Shown here: positions 9,782-54,105 of the stretch, in pieces
How positions within the stretch are numbered: position 1 is the first letter of the stretch
How the letters are laid out: every line of letters begins with the position of its first letter
Assembly (NCBI GenBank): GCA_900552015.1
Contig: URXY01000003.1
Location: 4,808-68,807, forward strand
DNA length: 64,000 nt
Origin: an uncultured Eubacteriales bacterium
GTDB taxonomy: Bacteria > Bacillota > Clostridia > Oscillospirales > Oscillospiraceae
Direction: 5' to 3'
Position numbers and translations under genes: made by a program
Notes under the pieces: model-generated
What the model saw: only the letters and a program-made list of their open reading frames with translations
The model's database searches: none
Told to the model about the DNA's origin: nothing

Positions 9782-10294
9782 ATGGGAAGAAAAGTGAGAA
9801 AACGGATGACAAAGGACACCATCCCCGAGGGGTTCAGCGTCCCGATGGCGCTCGTTGACCTGATCCCCGTCGTATTTTTCGGCCTTTCGGCGGTGAAGGC
9901 GGGGAGTCTGTTCCATAGCACACTGTTCATGGCGGGCGCTGTCATTTGCCTGCTCTCCGGCGTTGTGAAGGTGGGATGGAAGCTCATCGCGGCGGTCTCC
10001 CAAAGAAATATCTGGCCGATGTTTGTGCAGATGCGTGTTCTGATGCCGGTCGGATTTCTGGCGATGCTCGCGGCGCTGGTCGTGGACCGCATGGGATTGA
10101 ATGGGAAAGCGATGCTCGCGGGACTGACCGGCTTTCCATCTTGCGTATTTTTCCTCGCGGGCGCACTCGGTATGGTGACGATGACCGTTTTCGCCTTCCA
10201 GATGGACTCGAGCGATCCCAAGGTAAACTGGACGGAGCAGATCGTCAACGGCTTTGCACAGCTCTGCTTTTTTATCGGACTACTGCTGGCCTGA
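9782..10294 (+). CDS. hypothetical polytopic membrane protein
   Basis: Start ATG 9782 with RBS GGAGGG. About 5 hydrophobic segments. No recognised motif. Confidence 0.5.
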   Translation: MGRKVRKRMTKDTIPEGFSVPMALVDLIPVVFFGLSAVKAGSLFHSTLFMAGAVICLLSGVVKVGWKLIAAVSQRNIWPMFVQMRVLMPVGFLAMLAALVVDRMGLNGKAMLAGLTGFPSCVFFLAGALGMVTMTVFAFQMDSSDPKVNWTEQIVNGFAQLCFFIGLLLA

Positions 10295-10387
10295 GCGGGA
10301 AAAGCTGCATTTTGGCGCGGAGCGTCCGCTGCGAGGGAGAAACAGGGGCTGACCGCATGGGTTGGTACAGGACAATATGATCGGGAG

Positions 10388-10415
10388 AAGAGCCGCCTGT
10401 GGCGGCTCTTTTTTG
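10388..10415 (+). terminator. rho-independent terminator
   Basis: Stem AAGAGCCGCC / GGCGGCTCTT followed by TTTTG. Confidence 0.7.
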
Positions 10416-10599
10416 CATCATCGACAGAAACGATGAGAAAAAGAAAGCATCGTGGGGAATTTCGTTCAAAAAAGAAAATGAAAGAATGCGAAGGGCATCA
10501 TTCAATTATTGCAATATCTGAGCGGCGATTTTACTCGCTTTTTGCAAGAAAATGTGATACGCTGTCAAGGAAAATTGCGATGAGAAAGGAAGACCTCCC

Positions 10600-11301
10600 A
10601 TGATCGATATCTTTGATATGATGGGGCCTGTGATGGTCGGCCCGTCCAGCTCGCACACGGCGGGTGCGGCGCGCATCGGCGCCATGGGCCGCACGCTGCT
10701 CGGCGAGGAAGTGGCCGAGGCGAAGATCGGCCTGCACGGCTCGTTTGCCGAGACAGGCTTTGGCCACGGCACGGACCGCGCGCTGCTGGCAGGACTGCTC
10801 GGGATGAAGCCGGACGACCTGCGCATTCCGAATGCCTATCAGGAGGCAAAGAACGCAGGGATGAAGTATTCCTTTCGCACGGTCGACCTGCGCGATGCGC
10901 ATCCCAACACAGCTCTTCTGGAGCTGGCGGGCAAAAGCGGTAAGCAGATGACCCTACAGGCCTCGTCCGTTGGCGGCGGCGCGATCGTCGTCAACAAGAT
11001 CGACGGCATCAACGTGAATTTTACGGGCGAATTCAACACGCTCATCGTGCGCAACCAGGATGAATTCGGCTCGGTCGCGGCCATCACCTCCATTTTGAGC
11101 CAGCTGCGTATCAACGTGGCGAACATGAGCGTGAACCGCCACCGCCGCGGAGGTGATGCGCTGATGGTCATTGAGACCGACCAGCATATCAAGCGCAATC
11201 AGGTGGATTTTCTCGCGCAGTTACCGGGCATTTTGTCCGTGACCTATTACGATAAGGAGGACGACGAAGATGGTTCTGGATTCGATGAAGCAAATCTTTG
11301 A
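10600..11301 (+). CDS. sdaAB: L-serine dehydratase, iron-sulfur dependent, beta subunit (with ACT domain)
   Basis: N-terminal GPSSSHTAGA signature of the SdaA family. C-terminal ACT-like regulatory domain. Confidence 0.9.
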   Translation: MIDIFDMMGPVMVGPSSSHTAGAARIGAMGRTLLGEEVAEAKIGLHGSFAETGFGHGTDRALLAGLLGMKPDDLRIPNAYQEAKNAGMKYSFRTVDLRDAHPNTALLELAGKSGKQMTLQASSVGGGAIVVNKIDGINVNFTGEFNTLIVRNQDEFGSVAAITSILSQLRINVANMSVNRHRRGGDALMVIETDQHIKRNQVDFLAQLPGILSVTYYDKEDDEDGSGFDEANL

Positions 11302-12154
11302 GTGCTCGGAGCGGGAGAACCTCCCGTTCTGGGAGATCGTCCTGCGCTATGATATGGACCTGCGGCAGGTGAGCCGTCAGGCCTCGATGGCGAAGATGCT
11401 CTCGACCTGGCAGGCGATCCAGGACGCAGCGGACTCCTACACCGGCACGCAGCGCAGCGTGAGCGGCCTTGTCGGCGGCGACGGGCTGAAGATGCGGCTG
11501 TATCTGCGCCGCGGCGACAGCATCGGCGGCGAGCTCATCGGCGAGGCCATCGCGCAGGCGATCTCGATGGCCGAATCCAACGCCTGTATGCGCCGCATCG
11601 TGGCGGCGCCGACGGCGGGCTCCTGCGGCGTCGTTCCGGCGGTGCTGCTGGCCCTGCGGGAAAAGGAGGATTACACACAGCATCAACTGCTGGAAGCACT
11701 TTATGTCGCCTCGGGCATCGGCGCGGTCATCGCGTACCGCGCGGGCATCTCCGGCGCGGCGGGCGGCTGTCAGGCGGAGATCGGCACGGCGTCGGCCATG
11801 GCGGCGGGCGCGCTCGTGACCCTGCGCGGCGGCACGAACGAGCAGATCGGCCACGCGGTGGCCATCGCGCTTAAGAACCTGATGGGTCTTGTCTGCGACC
11901 CCGTGGCAGGCCTTGTCGAGGTGCCGTGTGTCAAGCGCAATGTCATCGGCGCGGTGAACGCTATCTCGGCGGCGGACATGGCGCTCGCGGGTATCGAGAG
12001 CCGCATTCCCGTCGATGAGGTCATCGACGCGATGGGCGAGGTCGGACGGCGTATGCCGGTCGAGTTCCGTGAAACGGCCCTCGGCGGTCTTGCCGCGACG
12101 CCCACGGGTGAAGCCGTGAAGGCGAGAATGCCACACGGAGAGCCAAACAAGTAA
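11270..12154 (+). CDS. sdaAA: L-serine dehydratase, iron-sulfur dependent, alpha subunit
   Basis: Conserved SDH_alpha blocks (GSCGVVPAVLLA ... CQAEIGTASAMAAGALV ... GLVCDPVAGLVEVPCVKRN). RBS AAGGAGG. Overlaps sdaAB by 32 nt. Confidence 0.9.
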   Translation: MVLDSMKQIFECSERENLPFWEIVLRYDMDLRQVSRQASMAKMLSTWQAIQDAADSYTGTQRSVSGLVGGDGLKMRLYLRRGDSIGGELIGEAIAQAISMAESNACMRRIVAAPTAGSCGVVPAVLLALREKEDYTQHQLLEALYVASGIGAVIAYRAGISGAAGGCQAEIGTASAMAAGALVTLRGGTNEQIGHAVAIALKNLMGLVCDPVAGLVEVPCVKRNVIGAVNAISAADMALAGIESRIPVDEVIDAMGEVGRRMPVEFRETALGGLAATPTGEAVKARMPHGEPNK

Positions 12155-12196
12155 AAAAATGCCATTCAGAGCACTGCTTTGAATGGCATTTTTTCT
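12155..12196. terminator. bidirectional terminator between convergent sdaAA and selD
   Basis: Stem GCCATTCAGAGC / GCTTTGAATGGC (1 mismatch) flanked by an A-run and a T-run. Confidence 0.6.
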
Positions 12197-12207
12197 GTGT
12201 CTGCGGT

Positions 12208-13248
12208 TCAGTCGAATTCGAGTTCAGTCGCCTTGCAATCAAGCACCTCGCCGACGATGGCGCTCCACGGGGCGAAGGGGCGGAGCAGGCCAAGGAGCTT
12301 TTCCGCCTGCTCGCGCGGCAGCGCGACGAGCAGACCGCCCGAGGTCTGCGGGTCGGCTGCAAGGTCCAAAAGCGCCTGCTGCGCCGAGGGCAGGACTGCG
12401 AGATGGGGCTTCACATAGTCCATATTGCGATAAGCGCCCGAAGGGATGATGCCCATTTCGGCCATGTCGAGCGCCTCATCCATCAGGGGAAGGGCCTTGC
12501 CGTGCAGGCGGATGGTCACGCCGCTGCCATCGGCCATCTCAAAGCTGTGGCCGAGCAGGCCGAAGCCCGTGATATCCGTGCAGGCGTGCACATCGCTCAC
12601 CTGACGCACCGCGTCGCCCGCAGCCTTATTGAGTGTGGCCATGTGCGCATACGCCGCGTCGCGCGAGGCATCGGAGATGAGGTCTGCCTTGAGCGCGGTG
12701 GTGAGAACGCCGCTGCCGATGGGCTTGGTGAGCACGAGCACGTCACCCGGCTGCGCGCCGACATTTTTGAGGATGCGGTCGGGATGCACGAAGCCCGTGA
12801 CGCACAGGCCGTACTTCGGCTCGTTATCCTGAATGGTGTGGCCGCCGGCGATGACACAGTGCGCCTCGACGGCTTTGGAATGTCCGCCCTCTAAAATGGC
12901 GCGGACATCCTCCTTGGGCAGACAGTTCGGCACGCAGAGAAGGTTCATCGCGACCCGCGGCTCGCCGCCCATGGCGTATACGTCGCTCAGCGCATTCGCC
13001 GCGGCGATCTGGCCGAAGAGATAGGGGTCGTCCACAATGGGGGTGAAGAAGTCGACCGTTTCGATGACGGCGACATCGTCGGAAACGCGGTAGACGGCGG
13101 CGTCATCGCTGCTGTCGTATCCGACGAGAAGGCCACGGTCTTTGACATTCGGCAGACCTTGCAGAATTTCCGTCAGGGCACCCGGCCCTAATTTTGCCGC
13201 TCAACCGGCGGCGGTGGTCATCTGCGTGAGACGGAGCTTTTCCTTCAT
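12208..13248 (-). CDS. selD: selenide, water dikinase SelD (selenophosphate synthetase); a selenoprotein with in-frame UGA (Sec) at 13201..13203
   Basis: The track ORF 12208..13035 aligns with SelD residues about 70-346 (DDPYLFGQIAAANALSDVYAMGG ...). Extending the frame upstream gives MKEKLRLTQMTTAAG-TGA-AAKLGPGALTEILQGL. This matches the SelD N-terminus, with TGA at the position of the catalytic Cys/Sec (E. coli GAGCGCK). ATG 13248 is preceded by AGGAGG at 8 nt spacing. Confidence 0.9.
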
Positions 13249-13322
13249 GCGCAGCACCTCCTGTCCTGAAAACGTCATCACGGGCGTGACCGCCCGCGAA
13301 GCAAAAAGGCAAAGTACACTCT

Positions 13323-13351
13323 ATTGTAGAGAATCGCGGCAGATTTGTCAA
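13323..13351 (-). promoter_or_regulatory. selD promoter (minus strand TTGACA-17-TACAAT)
   Basis: Reverse complement of 13323..13351 reads TTGACAAATCTGCCGCGATTCTCTACAAT. Lies about 70 nt upstream of the selD start. Confidence 0.6.
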
Positions 13352-13399
13352 ATTGGAAAAGAAGATGAAAACGCTTTGAGATGGAACGATATTGCAGAT

Positions 13400-14089
13400 T
13401 CAATGCGGAGAGAGGATGCGCAGCATATCGAGAAAGCTGGACAAGAGGTTTGTAGGGCGGCCATCGGAGATAACGACAGAACCAGAGAGCCCCTCGCAGC
13501 GGACGAAGTAGCGCTCGGCAGAGGAGAGGTTCGTAAATTCACAGCGCGCGGACGCACCATCTACCTTGTAGCACATGATGGGGGACGCATTTTCGGGATC
13601 TGTGACGCTCCAGAGCACGATCTCACCGCTCTGAAGTGCATCAGAGCGGAACGTGACGGTGATCTTCGTGCTGTTGGTGAACAGACGGCGGCCATCGCAG
13701 GTGTCAGCGAAGGTGCTCACTTCGCCATCGGCGAGATTACAGATATTTTCTTCGACTGCGGGGACGAAGGGGTGCTGAGCCTGTATGAGGTGGAGCCATG
13801 AAGCTGCCGCAAGTGAGAGCAGCACGATCAAAAGGATGGCGGCGAGCGTCAGAACCGTGCTGCGGCGACGGCGGCGTTTTTTTACCGTCAGCGCATAGTC
13901 TGCAAGCTTCGGTGTGTCGAGCGGCGGGTGGGTAAGGGCAAAGCGCTCGCTTTGCATTCGCTGCAGCGCTTTCTGACAGCCCGGACAGGCGGCGAGGTGT
14001 TCATCCACCAGTGCACGGCTCTCAGATGAGCAGGTCCCGTCGGCATAGAGCGGCAGAAGATCGCCGATGATGCGGCAGTCGATGTTCAT
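13400..14089 (-). CDS. anti-sigma factor, zinc-finger (zf-HC2 type) with one TM and an extracytoplasmic domain
   Basis: N-terminal motif CPGCQKAL with upstream Cys/His (zf-HC2). Central TM (LTLAAILLIVLLSLAAASWL). Overlaps the ECF sigma gene by 4 nt. Confidence 0.75.
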   Translation of the reverse strand: MNIDCRIIGDLLPLYADGTCSSESRALVDEHLAACPGCQKALQRMQSERFALTHPPLDTPKLADYALTVKKRRRRRSTVLTLAAILLIVLLSLAAASWLHLIQAQHPFVPAVEENICNLADGEVSTFADTCDGRRLFTNSTKITVTFRSDALQSGEIVLWSVTDPENASPIMCYKVDGASARCEFTNLSSAERYFVRCEGLSGSVVISDGRPTNLLSSFLDMLRILSPH

Positions 14090-14571
14090 AGGATACCCTC
14101 CATTTCTTCGATGAGTTTATTTTTGGCGCGGTAGAATGTGACCTTGGCCCACGATTCGGTCCTTCCGAAGATCTCCGCGATATCGCGGAAGCTCAACTCA
14201 CCAAGCACGCGCAGCGTAAAGACCTCGCGGTACGGCTCTTTGAGCCTATGGAGGTATTTGTGGATGTGCAGGGCCTGTTCCCGGTCGGCAAGCAGCGCGA
14301 AAAGGTCGTCTGGGACACTTTGCTCGGGCGATCCGTCCAGGGAAACTGTTCGCTTTTGGCGGTGGAGCTCCTTGTACAGTGCGTTTTTTGCGATTTGGCA
14401 GAGCCAGGTCTCGATACGGCAGTCGCCGCGAAACGCGCCGATGTGCTGGTAAGCCTGATAGAAGGTCTCGGCTGTCAGTTCGTCGGCGAGGTGTTCATCG
14501 CGGCAGAGGGAGAGCAGAAAGTGGTAGACGATAGGGGAAGTACGCTGAAAAATGAGATCAAAGTCATCCAT
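14086..14571 (-). CDS. RNA polymerase sigma-70 factor, ECF subfamily
   Basis: Sigma70 region 2 (ELTAETFYQAYQHIGAFRG...ETWLCQIAKNALY) and region 4 HTH (LSFRDIAEIFGRTESWAKVTFYRAKNKL). Confidence 0.85.
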   Translation of the reverse strand: MDDFDLIFQRTSPIVYHFLLSLCRDEHLADELTAETFYQAYQHIGAFRGDCRIETWLCQIAKNALYKELHRQKRTVSLDGSPEQSVPDDLFALLADREQALHIHKYLHRLKEPYREVFTLRVLGELSFRDIAEIFGRTESWAKVTFYRAKNKLIEEMEGIL

Positions 14572-14850
14572 GCAAAGCCCTCCTTCTTGCTGGTCTTGTC
14601 AATAAGAGCGCGTAAGGCGCAAAAAGATACAATTTTTTATTTATCTTATCAGCCGGCCGCCTGCGGCGCAAGTGGACCGCCCGTGGAGAAGAAAAGATGT
14701 AAAAATGCGATGGTTTATCCTTATTTATCATGGAAAACAATGGAAGGGAAAGCGTAAACGCGAAAAAAGGCGTGCCAAAGGGAAAATTATCTGCTATAGT
14801 TGAAAACGAATATCGGCGGAGCATCCGCTTTGGAAAAAGGAGATATCACT

Positions 14851-15456
14851 ATGACGATCGAAGTAAATGCGATGGGCGAAGCCTGCCCCATCCCTGTTGT
14901 GAAGACGCAGAAGGCCATGAAGGAGCTTGGCGGCGCGGGTGTGATCGAGACGCTGGTCGACAACGAGACGGCGGTGCAGAACCTCGGCAAGCTGGCCGCG
15001 AGCAAGGGCTGTGCGTCCAAGACCGAAAAGCTCGGCGAGAATCAGTACCGCGTGACCATCACCGTTGGCGAGAACACCAACGTGGAGGAAGAGAGCAGCG
15101 AATGCTATACCTGCGGCAAGCCGAAGGTCGTGGCAGTGCTGTCCTCCGACAAGATGGGCAGCGGCAACGACGAGCTCGGCGGCGCGCTGATGAAGGCCTT
15201 CGTCTACGCCCTGAGCCAGCAGGAGACCCTGCCCGACACCGTCCTCTGCTACAACGGTGGCGTGAAGCTGACGTGCGAGGGCTCGGAGTCTCTTGAGGAC
15301 CTTAAGGGCATGGCGGAGCGCGGCGTGGAGATCCTTAGCTGCGGCACGTGCCTGAACTTCTACGATCTGAAGGAAAAGCTGGCGGTCGGCGAAGTGACGA
15401 ATATGTATGTCATCGTCGAGAAGATGAGCGGTGCGGACCGTGTGGTGCGCCCGTAA
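14851..15456 (+). CDS. yedF: selenium metabolism protein YedF (TusA-like CPxP domain fused to DsrE-like domain)
   Basis: N-terminal TusA-like CPxP motif (GEACPIPVV). C-terminal DsrE/DsrF-like domain with conserved Cys (LSCGTCLNFY). Start ATG 14851 with RBS AAAGGAG. Confidence 0.8.
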   Translation: MTIEVNAMGEACPIPVVKTQKAMKELGGAGVIETLVDNETAVQNLGKLAASKGCASKTEKLGENQYRVTITVGENTNVEEESSECYTCGKPKVVAVLSSDKMGSGNDELGGALMKAFVYALSQQETLPDTVLCYNGGVKLTCEGSESLEDLKGMAERGVEILSCGTCLNFYDLKEKLAVGEVTNMYVIVEKMSGADRVVRP

Positions 15457-15460
15457 GGAC

Positions 15461-16594
15461 ATGATCTATCTGGACAACGCGGCGACCACGCTGCGAAAGC
15501 CCCCGCAGGTCATCGACGCGGTGGTGCAGGCCATGGGGAGCTTCGGCAACAGCGCGCGCGGCACGCACGAGGAGGCGCTTGCCGCTTCGCGCGTCATTTA
15601 CGACACGCGCTGCAAGCTCGCCGCGCTCTTCGGCTGCAAGAGGCCTGACCACGTGGCCTTTGCCTGCAACTCGACCGAGGCGCTGAACATCGCCATCAGC
15701 GGCTGTATCCGTGCGGGCGACCATGTCATCTCGACGGACCTTGAGCACAATTCTGTGCTGCGTCCGCTCTATCGGCTGAGGGCGGAGAGAAATGTCAGCC
15801 TGAGCTTCGTCCCAGCGGATAGACAGGGGAACATCGACTATGCAGACTTTGAACGGCTCTTACAGCCGGAGACCCGCGCCGTCGTCTGCACGCACGCCTC
15901 GAACCTGACGGGCAATGTGCTGGACCTTGCGCGCATCGGTGCATTTACGCACGAGCATGGGCTTTTGTTTATCGTGGATGCCTCGCAGAGCGCGGGCGTT
16001 CTGCCGATCGACATGGAGAAAATGCACATCGACGTGCTGTGCTTCACAGGGCACAAGTCGCTCATGGGCCCGCAGGGCACGGGAGGACTGTGCGTGCGCG
16101 AGGGCGTGGACATCGCGCCTTGGAAGGTCGGCGGCACAGGTGTGCAGACATATTCCGAATCTCAGCCCGAGCAGATGCCGACGCGTCTCGAAGCCGGTAC
16201 GCTCAACGGCCACGGCATCGCGGGCCTCAACGCGGCGCTCGATTTTTTGAACGAGACCGGTATCGATACCATCCACGCGCACGAGACGGCGCTGCTGCGC
16301 CGCTTTGTTGCAGGCGTGAAGGATATTCCGGGCGTGACGCTCTACGGCGATCTTGACCACGAGCGCACAGCGGTCGCCACGCTGAACATCGAGGGCATGG
16401 ACTCGGGCGAGGTCGCGGACATTCTGGCCGAGGACTACGGCATTGCGACACGTCCGGGCGCGCACTGCGCGCCGCGGCTGCACCGTGCGCTCGGGACTGA
16501 GGAACAGGGTGCGGTGCGCTTCAGCTTTGGCTGGTACAATACAGAAGAGGAAGCGGACGAGGCGGCGCGCGCCATCCGCGAGATAGCGACATGA
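15461..16594 (+). CDS. class V aminotransferase-fold PLP enzyme, cysteine desulfurase / selenocysteine lyase family
   Basis: PLP-lysine block (CFTGHKSLMGPQGTG) and C-terminal active-site Cys (RPGAHCAP). The ATG at 15461 is translationally coupled to yedF (alternative GTG start at 15431). Confidence 0.8.
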   Translation: MIYLDNAATTLRKPPQVIDAVVQAMGSFGNSARGTHEEALAASRVIYDTRCKLAALFGCKRPDHVAFACNSTEALNIAISGCIRAGDHVISTDLEHNSVLRPLYRLRAERNVSLSFVPADRQGNIDYADFERLLQPETRAVVCTHASNLTGNVLDLARIGAFTHEHGLLFIVDASQSAGVLPIDMEKMHIDVLCFTGHKSLMGPQGTGGLCVREGVDIAPWKVGGTGVQTYSESQPEQMPTRLEAGTLNGHGIAGLNAALDFLNETGIDTIHAHETALLRRFVAGVKDIPGVTLYGDLDHERTAVATLNIEGMDSGEVADILAEDYGIATRPGAHCAPRLHRALGTEEQGAVRFSFGWYNTEEEADEAARAIREIAT

Positions 16595-16827
16595 GAGAAA
16601 AAAAACTCTATTTGATCATCACCTTCCACACGACGGCTGCGGCGATCGCGATGGAGCGGCTCTGCCGGGACAAGGGACTGCCCGGGCGGCTCATCCCCGT
16701 ACCGCGTGAGCTGACGGCGGACTGCGGCATGGCGTGGCGCGCGGGCGTGGAGGACAAGCCCGCGCTCGAGGCCATGGTCGAGCAGGAGAAGCTGGAGGCT
16801 GCCGGTTTCTACGAAGTGATGATCTGA
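16591..16827 (+). CDS. DUF3343 family small protein (selenium/sulfur-carrier-associated)
   Basis: 78 aa, overlaps the aminotransferase stop (ATGA). Family is recurrently found next to yedE/yedF. Sequence MREKKLYLIITFHTTAAAIAMERL. Confidence 0.65.
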   Translation: MREKKLYLIITFHTTAAAIAMERLCRDKGLPGRLIPVPRELTADCGMAWRAGVEDKPALEAMVEQEKLEAAGFYEVMI

Positions 16828-16999
16828 CCAAAGTTCAAAAACTAAAAACCGCACACATTATCGGGTTTTTCGATAATGCGTGCGGTTTCATTATGAGATA
16901 CCATTTGCTCTTTCCGTTAAGAACCCATATACTGTTATCGGCAAATTTCAACAAATGCCAGGTGTGTATCGAAAAATAGAATAGGAGAGTTGAGAAAAA

Positions 17000-18097
17000 A
17001 TGAAAAAAGTACATCTGGGCGTCATCATTGCCGGTGCCGCCGTGGGTCTTGCCGCGCTCATTCTGACGGCGCTCGGCAACCCCTCGAACATGGGCTTCTG
17101 CATCGCCTGCTTCCTGCGCGACATTTCGGGCGCCTGCGGCCTGCACAGCGCCGCGAAGGTGCAGTATGTCCGTCCTGAGATCATCGGTCTCGTGCTCGGC
17201 GCGTTCATCATGAGCGTTGCGAGCAAGGAATTCAAGGCCCGCACGGGCTCGTCCCCCGCGGTCCGCTTCGTGCTCGGCGCGTTCGTCGTCATCGGCGCGC
17301 TGGCGTTCCTTGGCTGCCCGCTGCGTATGGTGCTCCGTCTCGGCGGCGGCGACCTCAACGCGCTCGTCGGTCTCGTCGGCTTCATCATCGGTATCCTCAT
17401 CGGTATCGCGTGCCTGAAGAAGGGCTTCTCCCTCAAGCGTTCCTATGAGGCGCATGTGGCCGAGGGCGGCGTTCTGCCGACCGTGATGGCCGTGTTGCTC
17501 ATCCTTGTCGTCACCGTGCCTGCGCTGTTCAAGGCCTCCGAAGAGGGCCCCGGCTCCATGCACGCGCCGTTCTGGATCGCACTCGTCATCGCGCTCGTTG
17601 TCGGCGCGCTCGCACAGAAGAGCCGCCTTTGCATGGTCGGCGGCCTGCGTGACGCTTTCATGCTCAAGGATCTCCACCTGCTCTACGGCTTTGTTGCCAT
17701 CTTCGTCGTCACGCTGATCGGCAACCTCATCATGGGCAAGTTCCACCTCGGCTTTGCGCTCCAGCCGGTCGCGCACAGCGCGCACCTCTGGAACCTGCTG
17801 GGCATGGTGCTCGTCGGCTGGGGCAGCGTGCTGCTCGGCGGCTGCCCGCTGCGCCAGCTCATCCTGGCCGCACAGGGCAACGGCGACAGTGCCGTCACCG
17901 TGTTCGGTATGCTCGTTGGCGCGGCGCTCGCGCACAACTTCGGCCTTGCCGGCAACCCCGACTCCAAGAGCGAGGCGGGCGAGCTGATCGTCGGTGGCAT
18001 TTCCAATGCCGGTAAGATCGCGGTCGTCCTTGGCCTCGTTGTGATGCTGGTCGTTGCCGTGCTGAATATGCCTAAGAAGGAGGAAGCAAACGCATGA
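17000..18097 (+). CDS. yedE: YedE/YeeE family putative selenium/sulfur-compound transport membrane protein
   Basis: Polytopic protein with the two conserved Cys loops of the YeeE/YedE family (GFCIACFLRD and GGCPLRQL). Confidence 0.8.
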   Translation: MKKVHLGVIIAGAAVGLAALILTALGNPSNMGFCIACFLRDISGACGLHSAAKVQYVRPEIIGLVLGAFIMSVASKEFKARTGSSPAVRFVLGAFVVIGALAFLGCPLRMVLRLGGGDLNALVGLVGFIIGILIGIACLKKGFSLKRSYEAHVAEGGVLPTVMAVLLILVVTVPALFKASEEGPGSMHAPFWIALVIALVVGALAQKSRLCMVGGLRDAFMLKDLHLLYGFVAIFVVTLIGNLIMGKFHLGFALQPVAHSAHLWNLLGMVLVGWGSVLLGGCPLRQLILAAQGNGDSAVTVFGMLVGAALAHNFGLAGNPDSKSEAGELIVGGISNAGKIAVVLGLVVMLVVAVLNMPKKEEANA

Positions 18098-18297
18098 TTG
18101 ACGCAAGAGGTTATTCCTGCCCCATGCCCGTTGTGATGGTGCAGAACGAAGTGAAGAAGAACGCGCCCGCGTCTCTTGAAGTGCTGGTCGACAGCATGAC
18201 CTGTGTGGAGAATGTCTCCCGCTTTGCAGAAAAGCAGGGCTATAAGGTGAGCTATGCCGCCGAAGGCGAGGATTTCCGCCTGAAGCTCAACAAGTAA
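18094..18297 (+). CDS. TusA-like sulfurtransferase (YeeD/TusA family)
   Basis: 67 aa with CPxP motif (YSCPMPVV). Overlaps the yedE stop by 4 nt. Confidence 0.8.
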   Translation: MIDARGYSCPMPVVMVQNEVKKNAPASLEVLVDSMTCVENVSRFAEKQGYKVSYAAEGEDFRLKLNK

Positions 18298-25005: not shown

Positions 25006-26139
25006 TTACAGCATGGGGAAGCGCGTGTCGCGGTGGGTTTTGAGCGCGGAGACGAGTGCGTCGATCTCTTCTTTCGTCGTCTCGGGGCCGAAGCTGACAC
25101 GCAGCACGCCCGCGGCGGTCTTTTTGTCAAGGCCCATCGCGCGGTAGACGTGGCTCAGCTGCCCGCGATGGCAGGCGGAGCCTGCCGAGATGCAGATGCC
25201 CTGTGCGCCAAGTTCCGTAACGACATTCGCCGACGGGTAGCCGACGAGCGAGATCGACAGGATGTGCGGCGCGGTCCCGTCGCCGATGCGGACGACGCCG
25301 TCGAGTGCGAGGAGCTTTTCCTCGGCATAGGCCTTGATGGCGGCGATGTGGGCGAGCTTTTCATCGAGATGGTCGGCGCGCAGCTCGACCGCCTTGGCAA
25401 AGCCTGCGATCTGGCCCGTGGCCTCTGTGCCGGAGCGCAGGCCGCTCTCCTGCCCGCCGCCAAAGATCAGCGGCTTGGGCGCGCGGATGCGCTCACCCAA
25501 ATACAGTCCGCCGATGCCCTTGGGCGCGCCGAGCTTGTGCGCGCTGACGGAGATGAGGTCCGCGCCCAAGGTGTCGGCGCGGAAGGGGACTTTCAAAAAG
25601 GCCTGCACCGCGTCGGTGTGCAGCAGCGCACGGGACTTTTTCGCCTTTAGGAGCTGCGCGACCTCGGCAACGGGGAAGATGCAGCCTGTTTCGTTGTTTA
25701 CAAGCATCATCGTGACGAGCGCGGTGTCATCGCGCAGTGCACTTTCGACCTGAGAGGCGGTGATGTCGCCGTTCTTGTCGGGCTTTAAGTACGTGACGGA
25801 ATAGCCCTCCTGCTCGAGCGCTTTGCAGGTCTCGAGGATCGCGCTGTGCTCCACAGCGGTCGTGATGATGTGCTTGCCGATATGGCGGTTCTGGTGCGCG
25901 GCGAGGCGGATGGCCCAGTTGTCGCTCTCCGAGCCGCAGGAGGTGAAGACGAACTGTTCACTCTTGCAGCCGAGCGCGGCGGCAATCGTCTCGCGCGCCG
26001 CGGCGACAGCGTCGCGCGCCTGCTTTCCGATGGGGTATTGCGAGCTGGGGTTGCCCCAGCCAGAAACCAGCGTATCGTAAACGGCGTGCGCCACCTCTTC
26101 GGGAACGGGGGTGGTGGCCGCGTGATCGAGATAGATCAT
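25006..26139 (-). CDS. cysteine desulfurase NifS/IscS family
   Basis: PLP-lysine motif (SVSAHKLGAPKGIGGLY) and C-terminal active-site Cys (ISAGSACH). N-terminus MIYLDHAATT. Confidence 0.9.
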   Translation of the reverse strand: MIYLDHAATTPVPEEVAHAVYDTLVSGWGNPSSQYPIGKQARDAVAAARETIAAALGCKSEQFVFTSCGSESDNWAIRLAAHQNRHIGKHIITTAVEHSAILETCKALEQEGYSVTYLKPDKNGDITASQVESALRDDTALVTMMLVNNETGCIFPVAEVAQLLKAKKSRALLHTDAVQAFLKVPFRADTLGADLISVSAHKLGAPKGIGGLYLGERIRAPKPLIFGGGQESGLRSGTEATGQIAGFAKAVELRADHLDEKLAHIAAIKAYAEEKLLALDGVVRIGDGTAPHILSISLVGYPSANVVTELGAQGICISAGSACHRGQLSHVYRAMGLDKKTAAGVLRVSFGPETTKEEIDALVSALKTHRDTRFPML

Positions 26140-26292: not shown

Positions 26293-27579
26293 ATGAAAGT
26301 TGCGATCTGTACCCTCGGGTGCAAGGTGAACCAATATGAAACGCAGGCGCTCGAGCAGGAGCTTTTACACCGCGGACACGAGTTGGTGGACTTTGAGGAG
26401 ACGGCGGACGCCTACGTCGTCAACACCTGCTCTGTCACGGCGGTGAGCGACAAAAAGTCGCGCCAGATGCTCCGCCAGGCGCAGCGCCGTAACCCGAGCG
26501 CGGTCATCGCCGCCTGCGGCTGCTACGCCCAGACGCATCCCGAGGACGTCAAAAAGCTCGGGCTCGACGTCATCGCCGGCACGAATGACCGCGCGAAGTT
26601 CATCGACCTTTTGGAGCGCGCGGCACAGGACAAAACGCCTATTGTCGATGTCGACGATGTCTGGGAGCGGCGCGATTTTGAGGTGCTGCCCGCGGGCGGT
26701 ATGGTGAATCGCACACGCGCGATGCTCAAGGTCGAGGACGGGTGCGTGAACTTCTGCACCTACTGCCTCATTCCTTACGCGCGCGGGCGCGTGCGCTCGC
26801 TGCCGATGGACGAAGCTGCAAAGCAGGTGAAAGCGCTGCGTGAGGAGGGCTACCGTGAGATCGTGGTCACGGGCATCGAAATTTCGTCCTACGGCTCGGA
26901 CTTCAAGGACGGGACCTCACTCATCGACCTTTTGGAGCTCATCGCGCGCGAGGGCGGCGACATGCGCATCCGCCTCGGCTCGCTCGAACCGCGGACCATC
27001 ACGGAGGAATTCTGCAAGCGGGCGTCGAAGCTTCCTTACCTTTGCCCACATTTCCACCTCTCGATGCAGTCGGGCTGCGACGCGACCTTAAAGCGTATGA
27101 ACCGCAAATATGATACGGCGCGCTATATGGAATCCTGCGACCTGCTGCGTCAGTATTTTGACGACCCTGCCATCACGACCGACCTCATCACGGGCTTTCC
27201 CGAGGAGACGGAGGAGGAATTCGCGCAGACGCTCGACTTCATCGCGCGTGTCGGCTTTGCCGACATGCACGTCTTCCCTTATTCCATCCGCCCGGGCACG
27301 AAGGCTGCGGAGATGCGCCAGATCGACATGCCCGTGCGCGAAGAGCGCGCTGCGCGCGCCTCGGCTGTCGCCAAGACGATGCACGAAGCGTATCTTGCGT
27401 GCTGCGTGGGCAAGATATTCCCCGTGCTCTTCGAGCGCGACCGCAAGGGCGGCAGCGCGGGCCACGCGCCGAACTATATGGAGGTATCCGTCGCGCAGGA
27501 GGGACTGCACAATCAGGTGAAGAACGTGAAGATCACGGCGGTCGACGGCGGCAGTCTTCGCGGCAATCTGGAGGAATAA
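26293..27579 (+). CDS. mtaB: tRNA t6A37 methylthiotransferase MtaB (radical SAM MTTase)
   Basis: N-terminal TLGCKVNQYE motif, radical-SAM CTYC motif, TRAM-like C-terminus. Distinct from the RimO-type N-terminus at 6312. Confidence 0.8.
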   Translation: MKVAICTLGCKVNQYETQALEQELLHRGHELVDFEETADAYVVNTCSVTAVSDKKSRQMLRQAQRRNPSAVIAACGCYAQTHPEDVKKLGLDVIAGTNDRAKFIDLLERAAQDKTPIVDVDDVWERRDFEVLPAGGMVNRTRAMLKVEDGCVNFCTYCLIPYARGRVRSLPMDEAAKQVKALREEGYREIVVTGIEISSYGSDFKDGTSLIDLLELIAREGGDMRIRLGSLEPRTITEEFCKRASKLPYLCPHFHLSMQSGCDATLKRMNRKYDTARYMESCDLLRQYFDDPAITTDLITGFPEETEEEFAQTLDFIARVGFADMHVFPYSIRPGTKAAEMRQIDMPVREERAARASAVAKTMHEAYLACCVGKIFPVLFERDRKGGSAGHAPNYMEVSVAQEGLHNQVKNVKITAVDGGSLRGNLEE

Positions 27580-41617: not shown

Positions 41618-42886
41618 ATGAATCAGATCACGAAAGCATTGAAAAAAGTGGCTGCCGCCTATAACGGCGTCAGCCTGATCCTACGCATCGCCGTCGGCCT
41701 TGTCATCGGTGCGATCTTGGCGCTCATTTGCCCGGGCGCGACTTGGTTACGGGAGCTCGGCAACCTGTTTGTCGGCGCGCTCAAGGGCATCGCCCCTGTG
41801 TTGGTGTTCGTCATCGTGGCGAGCGCGCTGGCGCAGGGCTCGTCCAAGCTCGACCGCCGCTTCGGCACGGTCGTGTGGCTCTACATGCTCACGACGTTCG
41901 TCGCCGCGGCGCTGAGCGTTGTGACCAGCATGCTCTTCCCGCAGACGCTCCTGCTGGCCGAGGCCGCTGAGGCCGAGGTCATCCCGCAGGGCCTTGGCGA
42001 GGTTATGCACACGCTGCTGTCCAACATCGTCTCGAACCCCATCTCCGCCATTATGAACGGCAACTACATCGGCATTCTGATGTGGGGCTGTCTCTTCGGC
42101 GTGGCGATGAAGAAGCTCGGTGCGGACTCGACGAAGGTCTTCCTCAGCAACACGGCGGACGCGGTGTCCACCATCGTGCGCTGGATCATCAATTTGGCAC
42201 CGTTCGGCATCATGGGCCTTGTGTTCACGAACGTCGTGAGCAACGGCCTTGCGATCTTCACCCAGTACGGCAAGCTCCTGCTGCTTTTGGTCGGCACGAT
42301 GCTCTTCATGGCGCTTGTCATCAACCCCATCATCATCTTCATCTATCTGCGCTGCAACCCCTATCCGCTGGTTTTCCGCTGCCTGCGTGAAAGCGGCCTG
42401 ACGGCCTTCTTCACTCGTTCCTCCGCAGCGAACATCCCCGTGAACATGGCGATGTGCGAAAAGCTCGGCATGGACAAGGACTTCTACTCCGTCTCTATCC
42501 CCCTCGGCGCGACGATCAACATGGACGGCGCGGCCATCACCATCACCATCATGACGCTGGCCGCGGCCAACACGCTGGGCATGCAGGTCTCGCTGCCCGC
42601 GGCGATCTTGCTTTCCATCATGTCGGCCCTTGGCGCGTGCGGCGCTTCCGGCGTGGCGGGCGGCTCGCTGCTGCTGATCCCGATGGCGTGCTCGCTGTTC
42701 GGCATTTCGAACGACATCGCGATGCAGGTCGTCGGCGTCGGCTTCATCATCGGCGTCATTCAGGACTCTGTCGAGACCGCGCTCAACTCTGCGGGCGACG
42801 TGGAGTTTGCCGCGACGGCCGAATATCATCAGTGGCTCAAGCAGGGCAAGCCCCTGCCGGAGTTCCTCGGCGGCAAGAAAAAGTAA
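41618..42886 (+). CDS. sstT: serine/threonine transporter SstT (DAACS family)
   Basis: Near-colinear with SstT (NLFVGALKGIAPVLVFV ... FFTRSSAANIPVNMAMCEKL ... PLGATINMDGAAITI ... DSVETALNSAGDVEF). The track ORF upstream of 41618 is an alternate-start extension. Confidence 0.9.
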   Translation: MNQITKALKKVAAAYNGVSLILRIAVGLVIGAILALICPGATWLRELGNLFVGALKGIAPVLVFVIVASALAQGSSKLDRRFGTVVWLYMLTTFVAAALSVVTSMLFPQTLLLAEAAEAEVIPQGLGEVMHTLLSNIVSNPISAIMNGNYIGILMWGCLFGVAMKKLGADSTKVFLSNTADAVSTIVRWIINLAPFGIMGLVFTNVVSNGLAIFTQYGKLLLLLVGTMLFMALVINPIIIFIYLRCNPYPLVFRCLRESGLTAFFTRSSAANIPVNMAMCEKLGMDKDFYSVSIPLGATINMDGAAITITIMTLAAANTLGMQVSLPAAILLSIMSALGACGASGVAGGSLLLIPMACSLFGISNDIAMQVVGVGFIIGVIQDSVETALNSAGDVEFAATAEYHQWLKQGKPLPEFLGGKKK

Positions 42887-49904: not shown

Positions 49905-49950
49905 AGACACTCCCTGACATGGGTTATCCATGCCAGAGGGTGTCTTTTTA
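49905..49950 (+). terminator. imperfect long hairpin followed by TTTTTAT in the 5' leader of the surface-protein gene (attenuator-like)
   Basis: GACACTCCCTGACATGG-GTTATC-CATGCCAGAGGGTGTC then a T-run. Lies about 50 nt upstream of ATG 50000. Confidence 0.4.
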
Positions 49951-49999
49951 TTTATCATTCAGCCCGCGGAGACGGGTAGAAAAACAGGTGGAAAGAAAT

Positions 50000-52551: not shown

Positions 52552-54105
52552 TCAGCTCAGATCGCCGGCGGCTTTGATCTTGACGCGGTTGGTGTTGCCG
52601 GGGTAGTAGGCGAGGGGAACGTCTTCCATCTCGATGATCTCGACGGTCTCGCGCACGGCACCGGCCTCGACCGCGAGCTCGATGGCCTCGTTCTTGGCCT
52701 TTTCGAGCGACTGCTCGCGGGGCAGCTCATCGTAGTTCATCAGCTTTTCGTAGGTACCGCTGACCTTGGAAATGGCAGAGCCGATGGCGTTGGCGCAGCC
52801 GAAATGCTCCGGCTTCAGAACCGTTGCCGCACCGCTGATCTTTTCCGGCAGGATAATGGAGCCGCCGCCGACGAGGATAAGATCGACGTCCGCGTTGGAG
52901 ACCTTCATGGCGTCCACGCTGTCTTCAACGAGGGAGCGAATGACGGCCATGGCCTTATCCGCGACCTCCTGCGGGATGTCGGCGACCTTGGACTTGTCGC
53001 CGAGCTCCACCATGCCGAGACGCACGGCGATATCGGTGGTCGTCATCGTGTTGCCGCCGAAGACGAGCGCCTTTTTCGTGATCTCATAACCCACGCTGTC
53101 GGGACCGACGGTCACGCTGCCGTCATCCTTGACGCGCACGATGGAGCCGCCGCCAAGGCCGATGGAGATGACGTCCGGCATACGGAAGTTCGTGCGCACG
53201 CCGCCGATGGTGACGGCCACGCTCGATTCACGCGGGAAGCCGTTCTGGATGACGCCGAGGTCGGTCGTCGTGCCGCCGACGTCAACGACGATGGCGTCCT
53301 TGAGCGAGGAGAGGTAGCTTGCGCCGCGGATGGAGTTCGTCGGACCGCAGGCGACCGTGAGGATAGGGTAGCGGCGGGCGTGCTCCATGGTCATGAGAGT
53401 GCCGTCGTTCTGGCTGAGATAGACGTCCGCGTTCGTGATGCCCTCGTCGCGCAGGCTCTTGGCAAAGCCCTTGGTGAAGCGCTCGGCCACTTGCCAGAGC
53501 GCGGCGTTCAGAATGGTGGCGTTCTCGCGCTCGATAAGGCCCATGGAGCCGATCTCGCTGGAGATGGAGACATGGATGTCCTCACCCATGACCTCGCGGC
53601 AGAGCTTTGCGGCCTCAAGCTCGTGGTCATTGCGGACGGTGGAGAACACGCAGGAGATGGCGACGGACTTGACGCCCTTTGCCTTCATATCGGTGAAGAA
53701 GGCCTTCGCGGCCTCCACGTCGAAGGGGGCGAGCTCCTTGCCGTCGTATTCAAAGCCGCCGCCGATGATGGCACTGCCGACAGCGACCTTCTGGATATCC
53801 TCGGCCCAGTCGACCATGGGGCGGATGCCCGTGGTGGCGGGCGCGCCGATGCGCAGGATGCCGATGGGGGCGAGGTTCTTGCGCTCCACAATGGCGTTGG
53901 TGCACTGCGTCGTGCCGAGCATGGCCTGGTGGATATGCTTGGGATCCACGCCGGAGACCTCGAGCACCGTGCGCATCGCGCCCAGAATGCCGTCGTAAAT
54001 ATCCGCAGAGGTGGGATACTTGATATCCGCGACCACCGCGCGGTTTTCGTCGATCAGGACAGCGTCCGTATTGGTGCCGCCCACATCAATTCCGAGTTTA
54101 TACAT
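52552..54105 (-). CDS. hydantoinase/oxoprolinase-family protein (HyuA-like N-terminal domain)
   Basis: Sugar-kinase/Hsp70/actin fold signatures (MYKLGIDVGGTNTD ... DVGGTTTD). Confidence 0.75.
   Translation of the reverse strand: MYKLGIDVGGTNTDAVLIDENRAVVADIKYPTSADIYDGILGAMRTVLEVSGVDPKHIHQAMLGTTQCTNAIVERKNLAPIGILRIGAPATTGIRPMVDWAEDIQKVAVGSAIIGGGFEYDGKELAPFDVEAAKAFFTDMKAKGVKSVAISCVFSTVRNDHELEAAKLCREVMGEDIHVSISSEIGSMGLIERENATILNAALWQVAERFTKGFAKSLRDEGITNADVYLSQNDGTLMTMEHARRYPILTVACGPTNSIRGASYLSSLKDAIVVDVGGTTTDLGVIQNGFPRESSVAVTIGGVRTNFRMPDVISIGLGGGSIVRVKDDGSVTVGPDSVGYEITKKALVFGGNTMTTTDIAVRLGMVELGDKSKVADIPQEVADKAMAVIRSLVEDSVDAMKVSNADVDLILVGGGSIILPEKISGAATVLKPEHFGCANAIGSAISKVSGTYEKLMNYDELPREQSLEKAKNEAIELAVEAGAVRETVEIIEMEDVPLAYYPGNTNRVKIKAAGDLS

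What the first reader, a model, noticed from the sequence alone, without database searches (positions are those of the whole stretch)
12208..13248. selD is itself a selenoprotein: in-frame UGA at 13201..13203 hidden from ORF calling
The ORF track shows only a 275-aa SelD fragment starting at a GTG. Reading the same frame upstream gives MKEKLRLTQMTTAAG-UGA-AAKLGPGALTEILQGLP. This aligns residue-for-residue with the SelD N-terminus, and the UGA sits exactly where the catalytic Cys/Sec belongs (E. coli GAGCGCK). An AGGAGG-N8-ATG start at 13248 and a TTGACA-17-TACAAT promoter at 13323..13351 complete the gene. The organism therefore uses selenocysteine (selA/selB/tRNA-Sec must lie elsewhere). Standard annotation would call this gene truncated or miss its start.
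Basis: partly seen in the sequence, partly recalled or inferred. Interest (0 to 1): 0.6.

Follow-up and report, generated by a model that had tools for sequence, protein, structure and literature searches.

The report
Selenocysteine-encoding selD gene, mis-called as truncated
The gene for the enzyme that activates selenium (SelD) contains a UGA "stop" codon at its catalytic position that almost certainly encodes selenocysteine; this arrangement is well known and widespread in bacteria, so the finding is correct but ordinary, though automatic annotation does cut the gene short.

Summary
On the minus strand, ATG 13248 opens a 346-codon frame that ends at 12208 and has one in-frame TGA, at 13203..13201 (codon 16). 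The full translation is a clear SelD (TIGR00476, 394 bits). U16 aligns with E. coli Cys17 and K19 with Lys20. ORF calling, and public gene calls on identical contigs, give only a 275-aa fragment that lacks the catalytic loop and two ATP/metal-binding Asp residues.

Several results show the TGA is real and selected:
- It occurs in five independent assemblies.
- It sits at the same codon in 28 of 80 related SelD loci; the other 52 have Cys.
- Window versus L001 (95% identical) differ in codons 1-15 only synonymously.
- TGA is an ordinary stop for 24 of 52 window genes.

A 5-7 bp hairpin with loop CGGGU lies 11 nt after the UGA. It meets the published bacterial SECIS model and shows strong covariation across 106 homologous sequences.

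Neighbours form a known selenium island (yedF, Sec-lyase-like, DUF3343, yedE, tusA-like). No selA, selB or tRNA-Sec lies in the window, and I could not find them for the source genome. Among relatives, 19-20 of 28 Sec-type loci carry selA (19 also selB) next to selD.

Sec-containing SelD is one of the two most widespread bacterial selenoproteins, so this is a new member of a known kind. Interest is low.

The parts
12208..13248 (-). selD coding sequence, 346 codons plus stop. It encodes selenide, water dikinase (selenophosphate synthetase) with Sec at residue 16.
   Evidence: Translation. TIGR00476 scores 394.4 bits (cutoff 125) and NF002098 scores 351.2 bits (cutoff 299). PDB matches: 3u0o at 5e-71 and 2yye at 6e-69.
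13201..13203 (-). In-frame UGA (codon 16), read as selenocysteine in the motif G-U-A-A-K.
   Evidence: Aligns with E. coli Cys17, and K19 aligns with Lys20. The same codon is TGA in 28 and TGC/TGT in 52 of 80 related loci. TGA is present in 5 independent assemblies.
13173..13191 (-). SECIS-type hairpin UUAGGGC-CGGGU-GCCCUGA. The core 5 bp span 13189..13175 and the apical loop is 13184..13180. The core stem starts 11 nt after the UGA, and there are 16 nt between the UGA and the loop.
   Evidence: MFE fold. Hairpin energy is -9.6 kcal/mol in context and -9.0 alone. RNAalifold consensus. Covariation across 106 sequences. The hairpin meets the bSECIS model quoted in PMC13188914.
13257..13262 (-). 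Shine-Dalgarno sequence AGGAGG, 8 nt before the ATG.
   Evidence: Read directly from the sequence.
13323..13351 (-). Sigma-70-type promoter: TTGACA, 17-nt spacer, TACAAT.
   Evidence: 11 of 12 consensus matches. The block is conserved against L001 while the flanks diverge.
13249..13316 (-). Presumed 5' UTR (about 68 nt). It has a GC-rich hairpin (GCGGGCG-GUCA-CGCCCGU) and possible pairing of CCUUUUU with the SD region.
   Evidence: Fold gives -25 kcal/mol, but z is only -1.56. The TSS is inferred, not shown.
12153..12195 (-). Intrinsic terminator between the convergent selD and sdaAA genes. It has an A-tract, a stem and a U-tract, so it could act in both directions.
   Evidence: Fold gives -23 kcal/mol with z = -6.8.
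14800..15456 (+). yedF (TusA-domain selenium metabolism protein). Public gene calls start it at about 14851 (201 aa).
   Evidence: TIGR03527 scores 220 bits. Pfam TusA.
15431..16594 (+). Class V PLP enzyme of the cysteine desulfurase / selenocysteine-lyase (SclA-like) family.
   Evidence: TIGR01977 scores 431.6 bits (cutoff 377). NF040779 SclA scores 368.9 bits, below its 525 cutoff.
16591..16827 (+). DUF3343 / Se_S_carrier small protein.
   Evidence: Precomputed Pfam PF11823 on the identical gene in L081-L084.
17000..18097 (+). yedE, a putative selenium transporter.
   Evidence: TIGR04112 scores 500 bits.
18094..18297 (+). Small TusA/SirA-like protein (67 aa, CPMP motif).
   Evidence: ORF translation. 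Pfam TusA on the identical gene.
13400..14571 (-). ECF sigma factor (14086..14571) and zf-HC2 anti-sigma factor (13400..14089). They lie directly upstream of selD on the same strand and are specific to this lineage.
   Evidence: Pfam and NCBIfam hits. Absent from L001 and from the other 79 related loci.

Best explanation
This is a complete, functional selD gene whose codon 16 is a selenocysteine-encoding UGA.

Inferred mechanism:
- Transcription starts from the conserved TTGACA-N17-TACAAT promoter, and possibly also by read-through from the upstream ECF sigma operon.
- Translation starts at ATG 13248.
- At UGA 13203..13201 the ribosome is reprogrammed by SelB·GTP·Sec-tRNA(Sec). SelB binds the short hairpin AGGGC-CGGGU-GCCCU, which begins 11 nt downstream, so Sec is inserted instead of termination.
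- The product is a 346-aa selenophosphate synthetase. Its N-terminal glycine-rich loop (G15-U16-A-A-K19) carries Sec in place of the catalytic Cys17 of E. coli SelD.
- The gene ends at an ordinary UGA stop followed by an intrinsic terminator.
- Selenophosphate made by SelD feeds Sec-tRNA synthesis, so SelD needs its own product pathway. This makes a selenium-dependent positive loop.
- The neighbouring yedF, Sec-lyase-like, DUF3343, yedE and tusA-like genes plausibly import and deliver selenium to SelD.

Shown here: gene identity, position of the UGA, its conservation, the hairpin and its covariation, and the truncated public annotation.

Inferred, not shown: actual Sec insertion, SelB binding to this hairpin, the presence of selA/selB/selC elsewhere in the genome, and the roles of the island genes.
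For: (1) Identity. The full-length translation passes both SelD equivalog models from profile position 1-3. It aligns end to end with solved SelD structures.

(2) Position. U16 and K19 align with E. coli C17 and K20, and with Aquifex GCAAKVGPG.

(3) Cys/Sec pairing. In 80 related genomic loci the codon is TGA in 28 and TGC/TGT in 52.

(4) Purifying selection upstream of the UGA. Window versus L001 differ in codons 1-15 only by two synonymous changes (CTC/CTG and GGT/GGG). The adjacent 5' UTR is heavily diverged.

(5) Not an error. The TGA appears in 5 independent assemblies with 98.6-100% identical sequence.

(6) Not a reassigned code. 24 of 52 window genes, including selD itself, end in TGA.

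(7) SECIS model. The hairpin has a 7-bp stem, a 5-nt loop CGGGU with G at loop position 2, and 16 nt between the UGA and the loop. Its energy is -9.6 kcal/mol. This satisfies the consensus bSECIS constraints quoted in PMC13188914.

(8) Covariation in 106 distinct GPG-type Sec-SelD sequences.
- 78.7% of cells are paired, against at most 51.6% when the partner columns are slid.
- The covariation score is 0.201 against 0.128 ± 0.009 in shuffles (0 of 500 reach it).
- Pair 18:26 occurs as U:A 50, G:C 22, A:U 7, G:U 7 and C:G 1.
- A permutation test on the slightly larger set of 114 sequences (63-nt de-duplication) gives 95/114 paired against 51 ± 5.

(9) Control. Cys-type SelDs with the same AAKVGPG peptide (L019, L027, L028, L047, L051) lack the stem.

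(10) Machinery linkage in relatives.
- selA lies within 10 kb of selD in 20 of 28 Sec-type loci, and selB in 19 of those. Only 3 of 52 Cys-type loci have them.
- tRNA-Sec is adjacent in 5 Sec-type loci.
- L003 (69% identical SelD, same selenium island) has selA, selB and tRNA-Sec immediately upstream.

(11) Context. yedF, yedE, a Sec-lyase-like gene and DUF3343 lie next to selD. This is the arrangement described by Lin et al. 2015 (PMC5322559).

(12) The 275-aa fragment starts at Val72. It therefore lacks U16 and K19, and lacks D49 and D66, which align with the ATP/metal-ligand Asp51 and Asp68 of E. coli SelD (alignment; the roles of those residues are from established SelD structural work).
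Against: - No selA, selB or tRNA-Sec lies in the 64 kb window, nor within about 10 kb beyond its left end and about 6 kb beyond its right end on longer public contigs.
- Seven SelA candidates from the protein database could not be tied to this organism.
- The hairpin is short, and its folding energy alone is not distinguishable from shuffled sequence (z = -0.9; -0.3).
- The metagenome pattern used to collect homologues fixed G16, G17, C19, C28 and U29. Only pairs 17:27, 18:26 and 19:25 and the outer pairs are therefore free tests.
- The sequences are phylogenetically related, so shuffle statistics overstate independence.
- No proteomic or 75Se evidence exists.
Confidence: 0.93

Rival explanations
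1. The TGA is a nonsense mutation and selD is a pseudogene, or makes only a 15-residue peptide.
For: Gene callers stop there and report a 275-aa fragment. The Sec machinery has not been demonstrated for this genome.
Against: - The same codon is TGA in 28 related loci from many lineages and in more than 100 metagenomic homologues.
- The downstream 330 codons are intact and score as a full SelD.
- The upstream 15 codons show only synonymous change against L001.
- A covarying hairpin follows the codon.
Confidence: 0.03
2. The UGA is decoded as a standard amino acid: Trp or Gly by code reassignment, or Cys/Trp by near-cognate read-through, without selenocysteine.
For: UGA reassignment exists in some bacteria (established knowledge). 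Sec insertion itself was not measured here.
Against: - 24 of 52 genes in the window terminate at TGA, including selD itself, and no other gene has an internal TGA.
- The position is Cys in 52 homologues, never Trp or Gly.
- Sec-type loci co-locate with selA, selB and tRNA-Sec.
Confidence: 0.02
3. Translation re-initiates downstream (for example at GTG 13035), giving an N-terminally truncated AIRS-domain protein with another role.
For: An ORF with a GTG start exists.
Against: - The GTG is Val72, inside a conserved motif, and has no separate RBS.
- There is no start codon in the 55 conserved codons between the TGA and the GTG.
- The fragment lacks the catalytic loop and two conserved Asp residues.
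- The AGGAGG-N8-ATG start and the promoter upstream of codon 1 are conserved.
Confidence: 0.02

Closest known systems
Selenocysteine-containing SelD of bacteria and archaea (for example Haemophilus influenzae, Clostridium difficile and C. perfringens, Moorella thermoacetica, Aquifex aeolicus, Methanococcus)
   Same: UGA at the catalytic N-terminal G-[U/C]-x-x-K loop, a SECIS hairpin inside the coding region directly downstream, and Cys-containing orthologues in sister lineages. FdhA and SelD are described as the most widespread bacterial selenoproteins (PMC1794560). The Aquifex enzyme in PDB 2yye/2zod aligns as GCAAKVGPG against GUAAKLGPG here.
   Different: Only the host differs: an uncultured human-gut Clostridia lineage, closest to MAG UMGS1263. 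Here selA and selB are not adjacent to selD, whereas they are in 19-20 of the 28 Sec-type relatives.
E. coli SelD (Cys17 enzyme, PDB 3u0o)
   Same: Same family and length, alignable over residues 3-337. It shares Lys20 and the conserved Asp-containing motifs.
   Different: E. coli uses Cys at the position where this gene has UGA/Sec. E. coli selD needs no recoding.
Bacterial SECIS element (E. coli fdhF type; bSECISearch consensus model)
   Same: A stem-loop immediately 3' of the UGA, a small apical loop with G followed by G/U in the first positions, UGA-to-loop spacing within 16-37 nt, and energy at or below -7.5 kcal/mol (PMC13188914).
   Different: It is very compact (5-7 bp) and sits at the minimum allowed spacing of 16 nt. 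Other SelD subfamilies in the same data set (Tissierellia and Lachnospiraceae types) instead show a stronger 8-9 bp hairpin about 24 nt after the UGA. Rfam has no matching family.
YedE / YedF / DUF3343 / Sec-lyase selenium gene neighbourhood (Lin et al. 2015, PMC5322559)
   Same: The same five gene families are clustered next to selD.
   Different: In this strain lineage an ECF sigma / anti-sigma pair is inserted between selD and yedF. It is absent from L001 and from all 79 other loci. There is no LysR_Se regulator here.

Membership tests
SelD (selenide, water dikinase; TIGR00476 / NF002098) | Whole-protein HMM score above the curated equivalog cutoff | tested here: met
   TIGR00476 scores 394.4 bits against a cutoff of 125. 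NF002098 scores 351.2 bits against 299. The match covers residues 2-338.
SelD (selenide, water dikinase; TIGR00476 / NF002098) | N-terminal glycine-rich loop with catalytic Cys/Sec and Lys (E. coli C17, K20) | tested here: met
   G15-U16-A-A-K19 aligns with E. coli GAGCGCK and Aquifex SSGCAAK.
SelD (selenide, water dikinase; TIGR00476 / NF002098) | Conserved Asp-containing ATP/metal motifs (DDAAVY, DFFTPIVDDP, NALSDVYAMGG, TDITGFGLLGH) | tested here: met
   All four motifs are present and aligned to the E. coli and Aquifex structures.
SelD (selenide, water dikinase; TIGR00476 / NF002098) | ATP-dependent selenophosphate synthesis activity | not testable with these tools
   Needs an enzyme assay.
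Bacterial selenoprotein gene (Sec-UGA recoding) | In-frame UGA aligned with Cys in homologues | tested here: met
   28 TGA against 52 TGC/TGT at the same codon in 80 loci.
Bacterial selenoprotein gene (Sec-UGA recoding) | bSECIS hairpin meeting the consensus model: loop 3-9 nt, stem 4-16 bp, G in the first two loop positions, 16-37 nt from UGA to loop, MFE at or below -7.5 kcal/mol | tested here: met
   Loop CGGGU (5 nt), stem 7 bp, spacing 16 nt, energy -9.6 kcal/mol. Model taken from PMC13188914.
Bacterial selenoprotein gene (Sec-UGA recoding) | Hairpin conserved by compensatory change across homologues | tested here: met
   On 106 sequences, 78.7% of cells are paired against at most 51.6% when slid. 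Pair 18:26 has four Watson-Crick types plus G:U, and 0 of 500 shuffles reach the observed covariation score. Caveat: part of the stem was fixed by the search pattern.
Bacterial selenoprotein gene (Sec-UGA recoding) | selA, selB and tRNA-Sec (selC) present in the same genome | not testable with these tools
   None in the window, nor within about 10 kb beyond its left end and about 6 kb beyond its right end. Seven SelA candidates could not be linked to this organism. Indirect support: selA and selB are adjacent to selD in 19-20 of 28 Sec-type relatives.
Bacterial selenoprotein gene (Sec-UGA recoding) | Selenium physically incorporated at the UGA position | not testable with these tools
   Needs 75Se labelling or MS/MS.
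YedE/YedF selenium-metabolism neighbourhood | YedE (TIGR04112) and YedF (TIGR03527) equivalog hits next to selD | tested here: met
   YedE scores 500 bits (cutoff 200) and YedF scores 220 bits (cutoff 110).
Selenocysteine lyase SclA (NF040779) | Score above the curated cutoff | tested here: not met
   368.9 bits against a cutoff of 525. The protein does pass the broader TIGR01977 cysteine desulfurase family model (431.6 against 377). It is therefore called SclA-like only.

The most novel reading that the evidence does not exclude
In this strain lineage an ECF sigma / zf-HC2 (redox-sensing type) anti-sigma pair has been inserted directly upstream of selD, on the same strand and with no terminator between them. 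It splits selD from the divergent yedF island. If transcription reads through, selenophosphate synthesis, and hence all selenium use, would come under an envelope- or thiol-stress sigma factor. That regulatory link has not been described for selenium metabolism.

A second, more modest reading: the compact GPG-type SECIS forces a coupling between a synonymous Gly codon and the identity of a nearby amino acid (GGU-Asp, GGG-Ala, GGA-Val, GGC-Gly) across many SelD lineages.
Probability: 0.1. Interest if true: 0.3.

Novelty: new member of a known kind. Interest (0 to 1): 0.12.

Why it matters
There are two practical points.

First, annotation. Public gene calls on identical contigs list this gene as a 275-aa AIRS-domain fragment. 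Pipelines that ignore Sec will therefore under-call selenium utilisation in a prevalent human-gut Clostridia lineage. One window protein is indexed in more than 700 blocks of the public assembly collection.

Second, biology. A Sec-containing SelD marks the organism as a selenocysteine user and a competitor for dietary selenium. It also makes selenium activation depend on selenium supply.

Conceptually nothing new is added. Sec-SelD, the coding-region SECIS and the YedE/YedF island are all described in the literature (PMC1794560, PMC5322559, PMC13188914).

Tried and rejected
- Rfam, at gathering thresholds over the whole window and at permissive E-values over 12100-13450, found nothing relevant. 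I recall no bacterial SECIS family in Rfam, so I take this as uninformative.
- Folding energy alone does not single out the window's hairpin (z = -0.9 and -0.3). I relied on covariation instead.
- A search for a second selenoprotein gene in the window (in-frame TGA with coding signal on both sides) found only selD plus one antisense artefact at 42484-42786.
- Genetic-code reassignment was rejected from stop-codon usage.
- I tried to find selA/selB of the source organism.
  - I queried the protein database with SelA of relative L003.
  - I then looked up 7 candidates (P0057, P0043, P0049, P0063, P0091, P0070, P0075).
  - None came from the MAG UMGS1263 or from the samples that carry the window's contigs. 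All showed selA-selB operons of other organisms.
  - Extending beyond the window's ends on longer public contigs (about 10 kb on the left, about 6 kb on the right) showed no sel genes.
- The outermost predicted pair 13:31 (U-A in the window) is not conserved: it is unpaired in 75 of 106 sequences. I therefore treat only the 5-6 bp core as the conserved element.
- A weak distal GCA-AGGUC-UGC hairpin in the window resembles the fdhF apical loop, but it is not conserved in L002-L004 and was dropped.
- The 5' UTR SD-sequestering fold is not significant (z = -1.56) and is not clearly conserved in L001.

Full report
**Observation.** Reading the minus strand from 13500 to 12100 and translating 13248..12208 gives MKEKLRLTQMTTAAG*AAKLGPGALTEILQGLP… followed by 330 more codons and a terminal TGA. 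The internal stop is TGA at 13203..13201, which is codon 16. AGGAGG lies at 13262..13257, 8 nt before the ATG. The promoter-like site TTGACA-17-TACAAT lies at 13351..13323 and matches 11 of 12 consensus positions. It is one of only two such sites in 3 kb. The mechanical ORF list contains only 12208..13035, 275 aa, with a GTG start.

**What the protein is.** With residue 16 written as Cys, the 346-aa product passes both NCBIfam SelD equivalog models. TIGR00476 scores 394.4 bits against a cutoff of 125, aligned from profile position 1. NF002098 scores 351.2 bits against 299. The product aligns over residues 3-337 with E. coli SelD (PDB 3u0o, 5e-71) and over 5-335 with Aquifex aeolicus SelD (2yye, 6e-69). 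In those alignments U16 pairs with E. coli Cys17 and K19 with Lys20. The Aquifex crystal sequence reads GCAAKVGPG against GUAAKLGPG here. The 275-aa fragment begins at Val72, inside the conserved FFTPIVDDP motif. It therefore lacks the catalytic loop and two conserved Asp motifs, and cannot be a working SelD.

**Is the TGA real and selected?**
- The 221-nt stretch from the promoter past the TGA is 98.6-100% identical in five independent ENA metagenome assemblies, and all carry TGA.
- Public gene calls on those contigs list the gene as a 275-aa AIRS/AIRS_C protein. This confirms the predicted mis-annotation.
- A scan of one genome per GTDB species returned 80 SelD loci. The homologous codon is TGA in 28 and TGC/TGT in 52. 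This is the classic Cys/Sec pairing.
- The closest relative, L001 (MAG UMGS1263, 95% identical SelD, syntenic), differs from the window in codons 1-15 only by two synonymous changes. The 5' UTR just upstream is heavily diverged, and the promoter block is almost invariant.
- TGA is a normal stop for 24 of 52 window genes, including selD itself. No other gene shows coding signal on both sides of an internal TGA. Code reassignment is therefore excluded.

**The recoding signal.** Eleven nucleotides after the UGA lies the hairpin AGGGC-CGGGU-GCCCU. In the window it is extended by U·G and U-A pairs to 7 bp (13191..13173). Its energy is -9.6 kcal/mol. The published consensus model for bacterial SECIS elements requires four things (PMC13188914): a 3-9 nt loop, a 4-16 bp stem, a G in the first two loop positions, and 16-37 nt from UGA to loop with MFE at or below -7.5. 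The window's values are a 5-nt loop, a 7-bp stem, loop CGGGU, a spacing of 16 nt and -9.6 kcal/mol.

Folding energy alone is not significant against shuffles (z = -0.9 and -0.3), so I tested conservation.
- Among the seven closest Sec-type sequences, RNAalifold predicts the same hairpin, with compensatory changes at two pairs.
- A metagenome scan for the pattern GGN-TGA-GCN-GCN-AAR-NTN-GGN-CCN-GGN-NNN-CT gave 120 stretches, all SelD N-termini.
- Together with the genomic loci this yields 106 distinct 42-nt sequences. For these, 78.7% of cells are paired in the proposed stem, against 30-52% when the 3' partners are slid by 1-3 columns. The covariation score is 0.201 against 0.128 ± 0.009 in shuffles, and 0 of 500 shuffles reach it.
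- The informative pair is column 18, the third base of the Gly codon, with column 26, the second base of the codon after G-P-G. It occurs as U:A 50, G:C 22, A:U 7, G:U 7 and C:G 1.
- In protein terms the codon pairs are GGU with GAC (Asp), GGG with GCC (Ala), GGA with GUC (Val) and GGC with GGC (Gly). A permutation test on a slightly larger set of 114 sequences (63-nt de-duplication) gives 95/114 paired against 51 ± 5.
- Cys-type SelDs that encode the same AAKVGPG peptide (the Blautia loci L019, L027, L028, L047, L051) do not form the stem.
- Caveats: the search pattern fixed G16, G17, C19, C28 and U29. The sequences are related by descent. The outermost pair 13:31 is not conserved.
- Other SelD subfamilies have, in addition or instead, a stronger 8-9 bp hairpin about 24 nt after the UGA.

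**Sec machinery.**
- The window has no tRNA gene at all and no SelA or SelB domain among about 52 genes scanned.
- On longer public contigs, the roughly 10 kb beyond the window's left end and 6 kb beyond its right end also lack them.
- In relatives the link is strong. selA lies within 10 kb of selD in 20 of 28 Sec-type loci, and selB in 19 of those, against 3 of 52 Cys-type loci. tRNA-Sec is adjacent in five Sec-type loci.
- L003 (69% identical SelD with the same selenium island) has selA (TIGR00474, 596 bits), selB (TIGR00475, 384 bits) and tRNA-Sec directly upstream.
- I tried to find the source organism's selA by searching the protein database with L003 SelA and looking up seven candidates. 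None could be tied to the same MAG or samples.
- This defining feature therefore remains untested for this genome.

**Surroundings.**
- selD converges on sdaAB/sdaAA (10600-12154). The two are separated by a strong terminator with A- and U-tracts on either side of the stem (12153-12195; -23 kcal/mol, z = -6.8).
- Upstream on the same strand lie an ECF sigma factor (14086-14571) and a zf-HC2 anti-sigma factor (13400-14089).
- Beyond them, running the other way, is a selenium island:
  - yedF (TIGR03527, 220 bits);
  - a cysteine-desulfurase / SclA-like PLP enzyme;
  - a DUF3343/Se_S_carrier protein;
  - yedE (TIGR04112, 500 bits);
  - a 67-aa TusA-like protein.
- This is the neighbourhood described by Lin et al. 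2015 (PMC5322559).
- The sigma/anti-sigma pair is absent from L001, where yedF starts about 230 bp from selD, and from all other loci. Its GC3 is lower than that of its neighbours (0.69 against about 0.8). No terminator is called between it and selD.

**Comparison with what is known.** Zhang et al. [quoted passage not shown] They list Sec-SelD in several Clostridia, including C. difficile, C. perfringens, Moorella and Thermoanaerobacter (PMC1794560). Later reviews repeat this (PMC9312934). The gene here meets every sequence-level criterion for that class. It is a new, publicly mis-annotated member of it in an uncultured human-gut Clostridia lineage.

**Verdict.** My confidence that this UGA encodes Sec is about 0.93. 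This is a new member of a known kind and interest is low (0.12). The residual uncertainty is the undemonstrated Sec machinery in this particular genome and the absence of protein-level evidence.

Noticed in passing
window 13400-14571 (minus strand): An ECF sigma factor plus a zf-HC2 anti-sigma factor sit between the selD promoter and yedF. They are present in identical ENA contigs but absent from the 95%-identical relative L001 and from all 79 other SelD loci. Their GC3 is 0.69 against about 0.8 in the neighbours. No terminator is called before selD, so read-through into selD is possible.
   Followed up: partly
window 14800-18297: A complete selenium-handling island lies next to selD: yedF, an SclA-like cysteine desulfurase / Sec lyase, DUF3343/Se_S_carrier, yedE and a 67-aa TusA-like protein. 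The lyase-like protein scores below the curated SclA cutoff (369 against 525 bits).
   Followed up: yes
L017 (Terrisporobacter mayombei DSM 6539 plasmid pTM1, 21.9 kb), about 10001-15500: A complete plasmid record carries a Sec-type selD (TGA), selA, selB and a Sec-lyase-like gene. The selenocysteine machinery is therefore plasmid-borne here.
   Followed up: no
L008, L009, L012, L025, L029, L031, L044, L080 and L005, L017, L020, L035, L041, L054, L059: 24-45 nt after the Sec codon: Other Sec-SelD subfamilies carry a much stronger 8-9 bp hairpin with GGUU/AGUU-type loops about 24 nt after the UGA. The window's clade lacks it. The SECIS position seems to differ between SelD subfamilies.
   Followed up: partly
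window 13175-13189 and 106 homologous sequences (alignment A3): The SECIS stem couples a synonymous Gly codon to the amino acid two codons later: GGU-GAC Asp, GGG-GCC Ala, GGA-GUC Val, GGC-GGC Gly. An RNA-structure constraint is therefore visible in the protein sequence.
   Followed up: yes
window 13249-13316 (minus strand): The presumed 5' UTR contains a GC-rich hairpin, and a CCUUUUU stretch that can pair with the AGGAGG Shine-Dalgarno sequence. It is not significant against shuffles (z = -1.56) and is not clearly conserved in L001.
   Followed up: partly
window 52552-58352; L219 17717-20453: A cluster of hydantoinase, S-Me-THD/DUF917, cytosine/purine permease and a PucR regulator. In a related strain (L219), xanthine-dehydrogenase-family genes (FAD_binding_5, Fer2, MoCoBD) abut the hydantoinase gene. 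At that position the window has the SLH/LRR surface protein 49919-52453. This could relate to selenium-dependent molybdenum hydroxylases.
   Followed up: no
window 60379-61770: A hybrid histidine-kinase / receiver protein (463 aa) is present in the window but absent at the corresponding place in strains L219 and L220. There the 150-aa gene is only about 260 bp from the sigma-factor gene.
   Followed up: no
window 25006-26139 (minus strand): A second class V aminotransferase (cysteine-desulfurase-like, 377 aa) lies about 9 kb from the selenium island. Next to it is a MiaB-like radical SAM enzyme (26293-27579).
   Followed up: no
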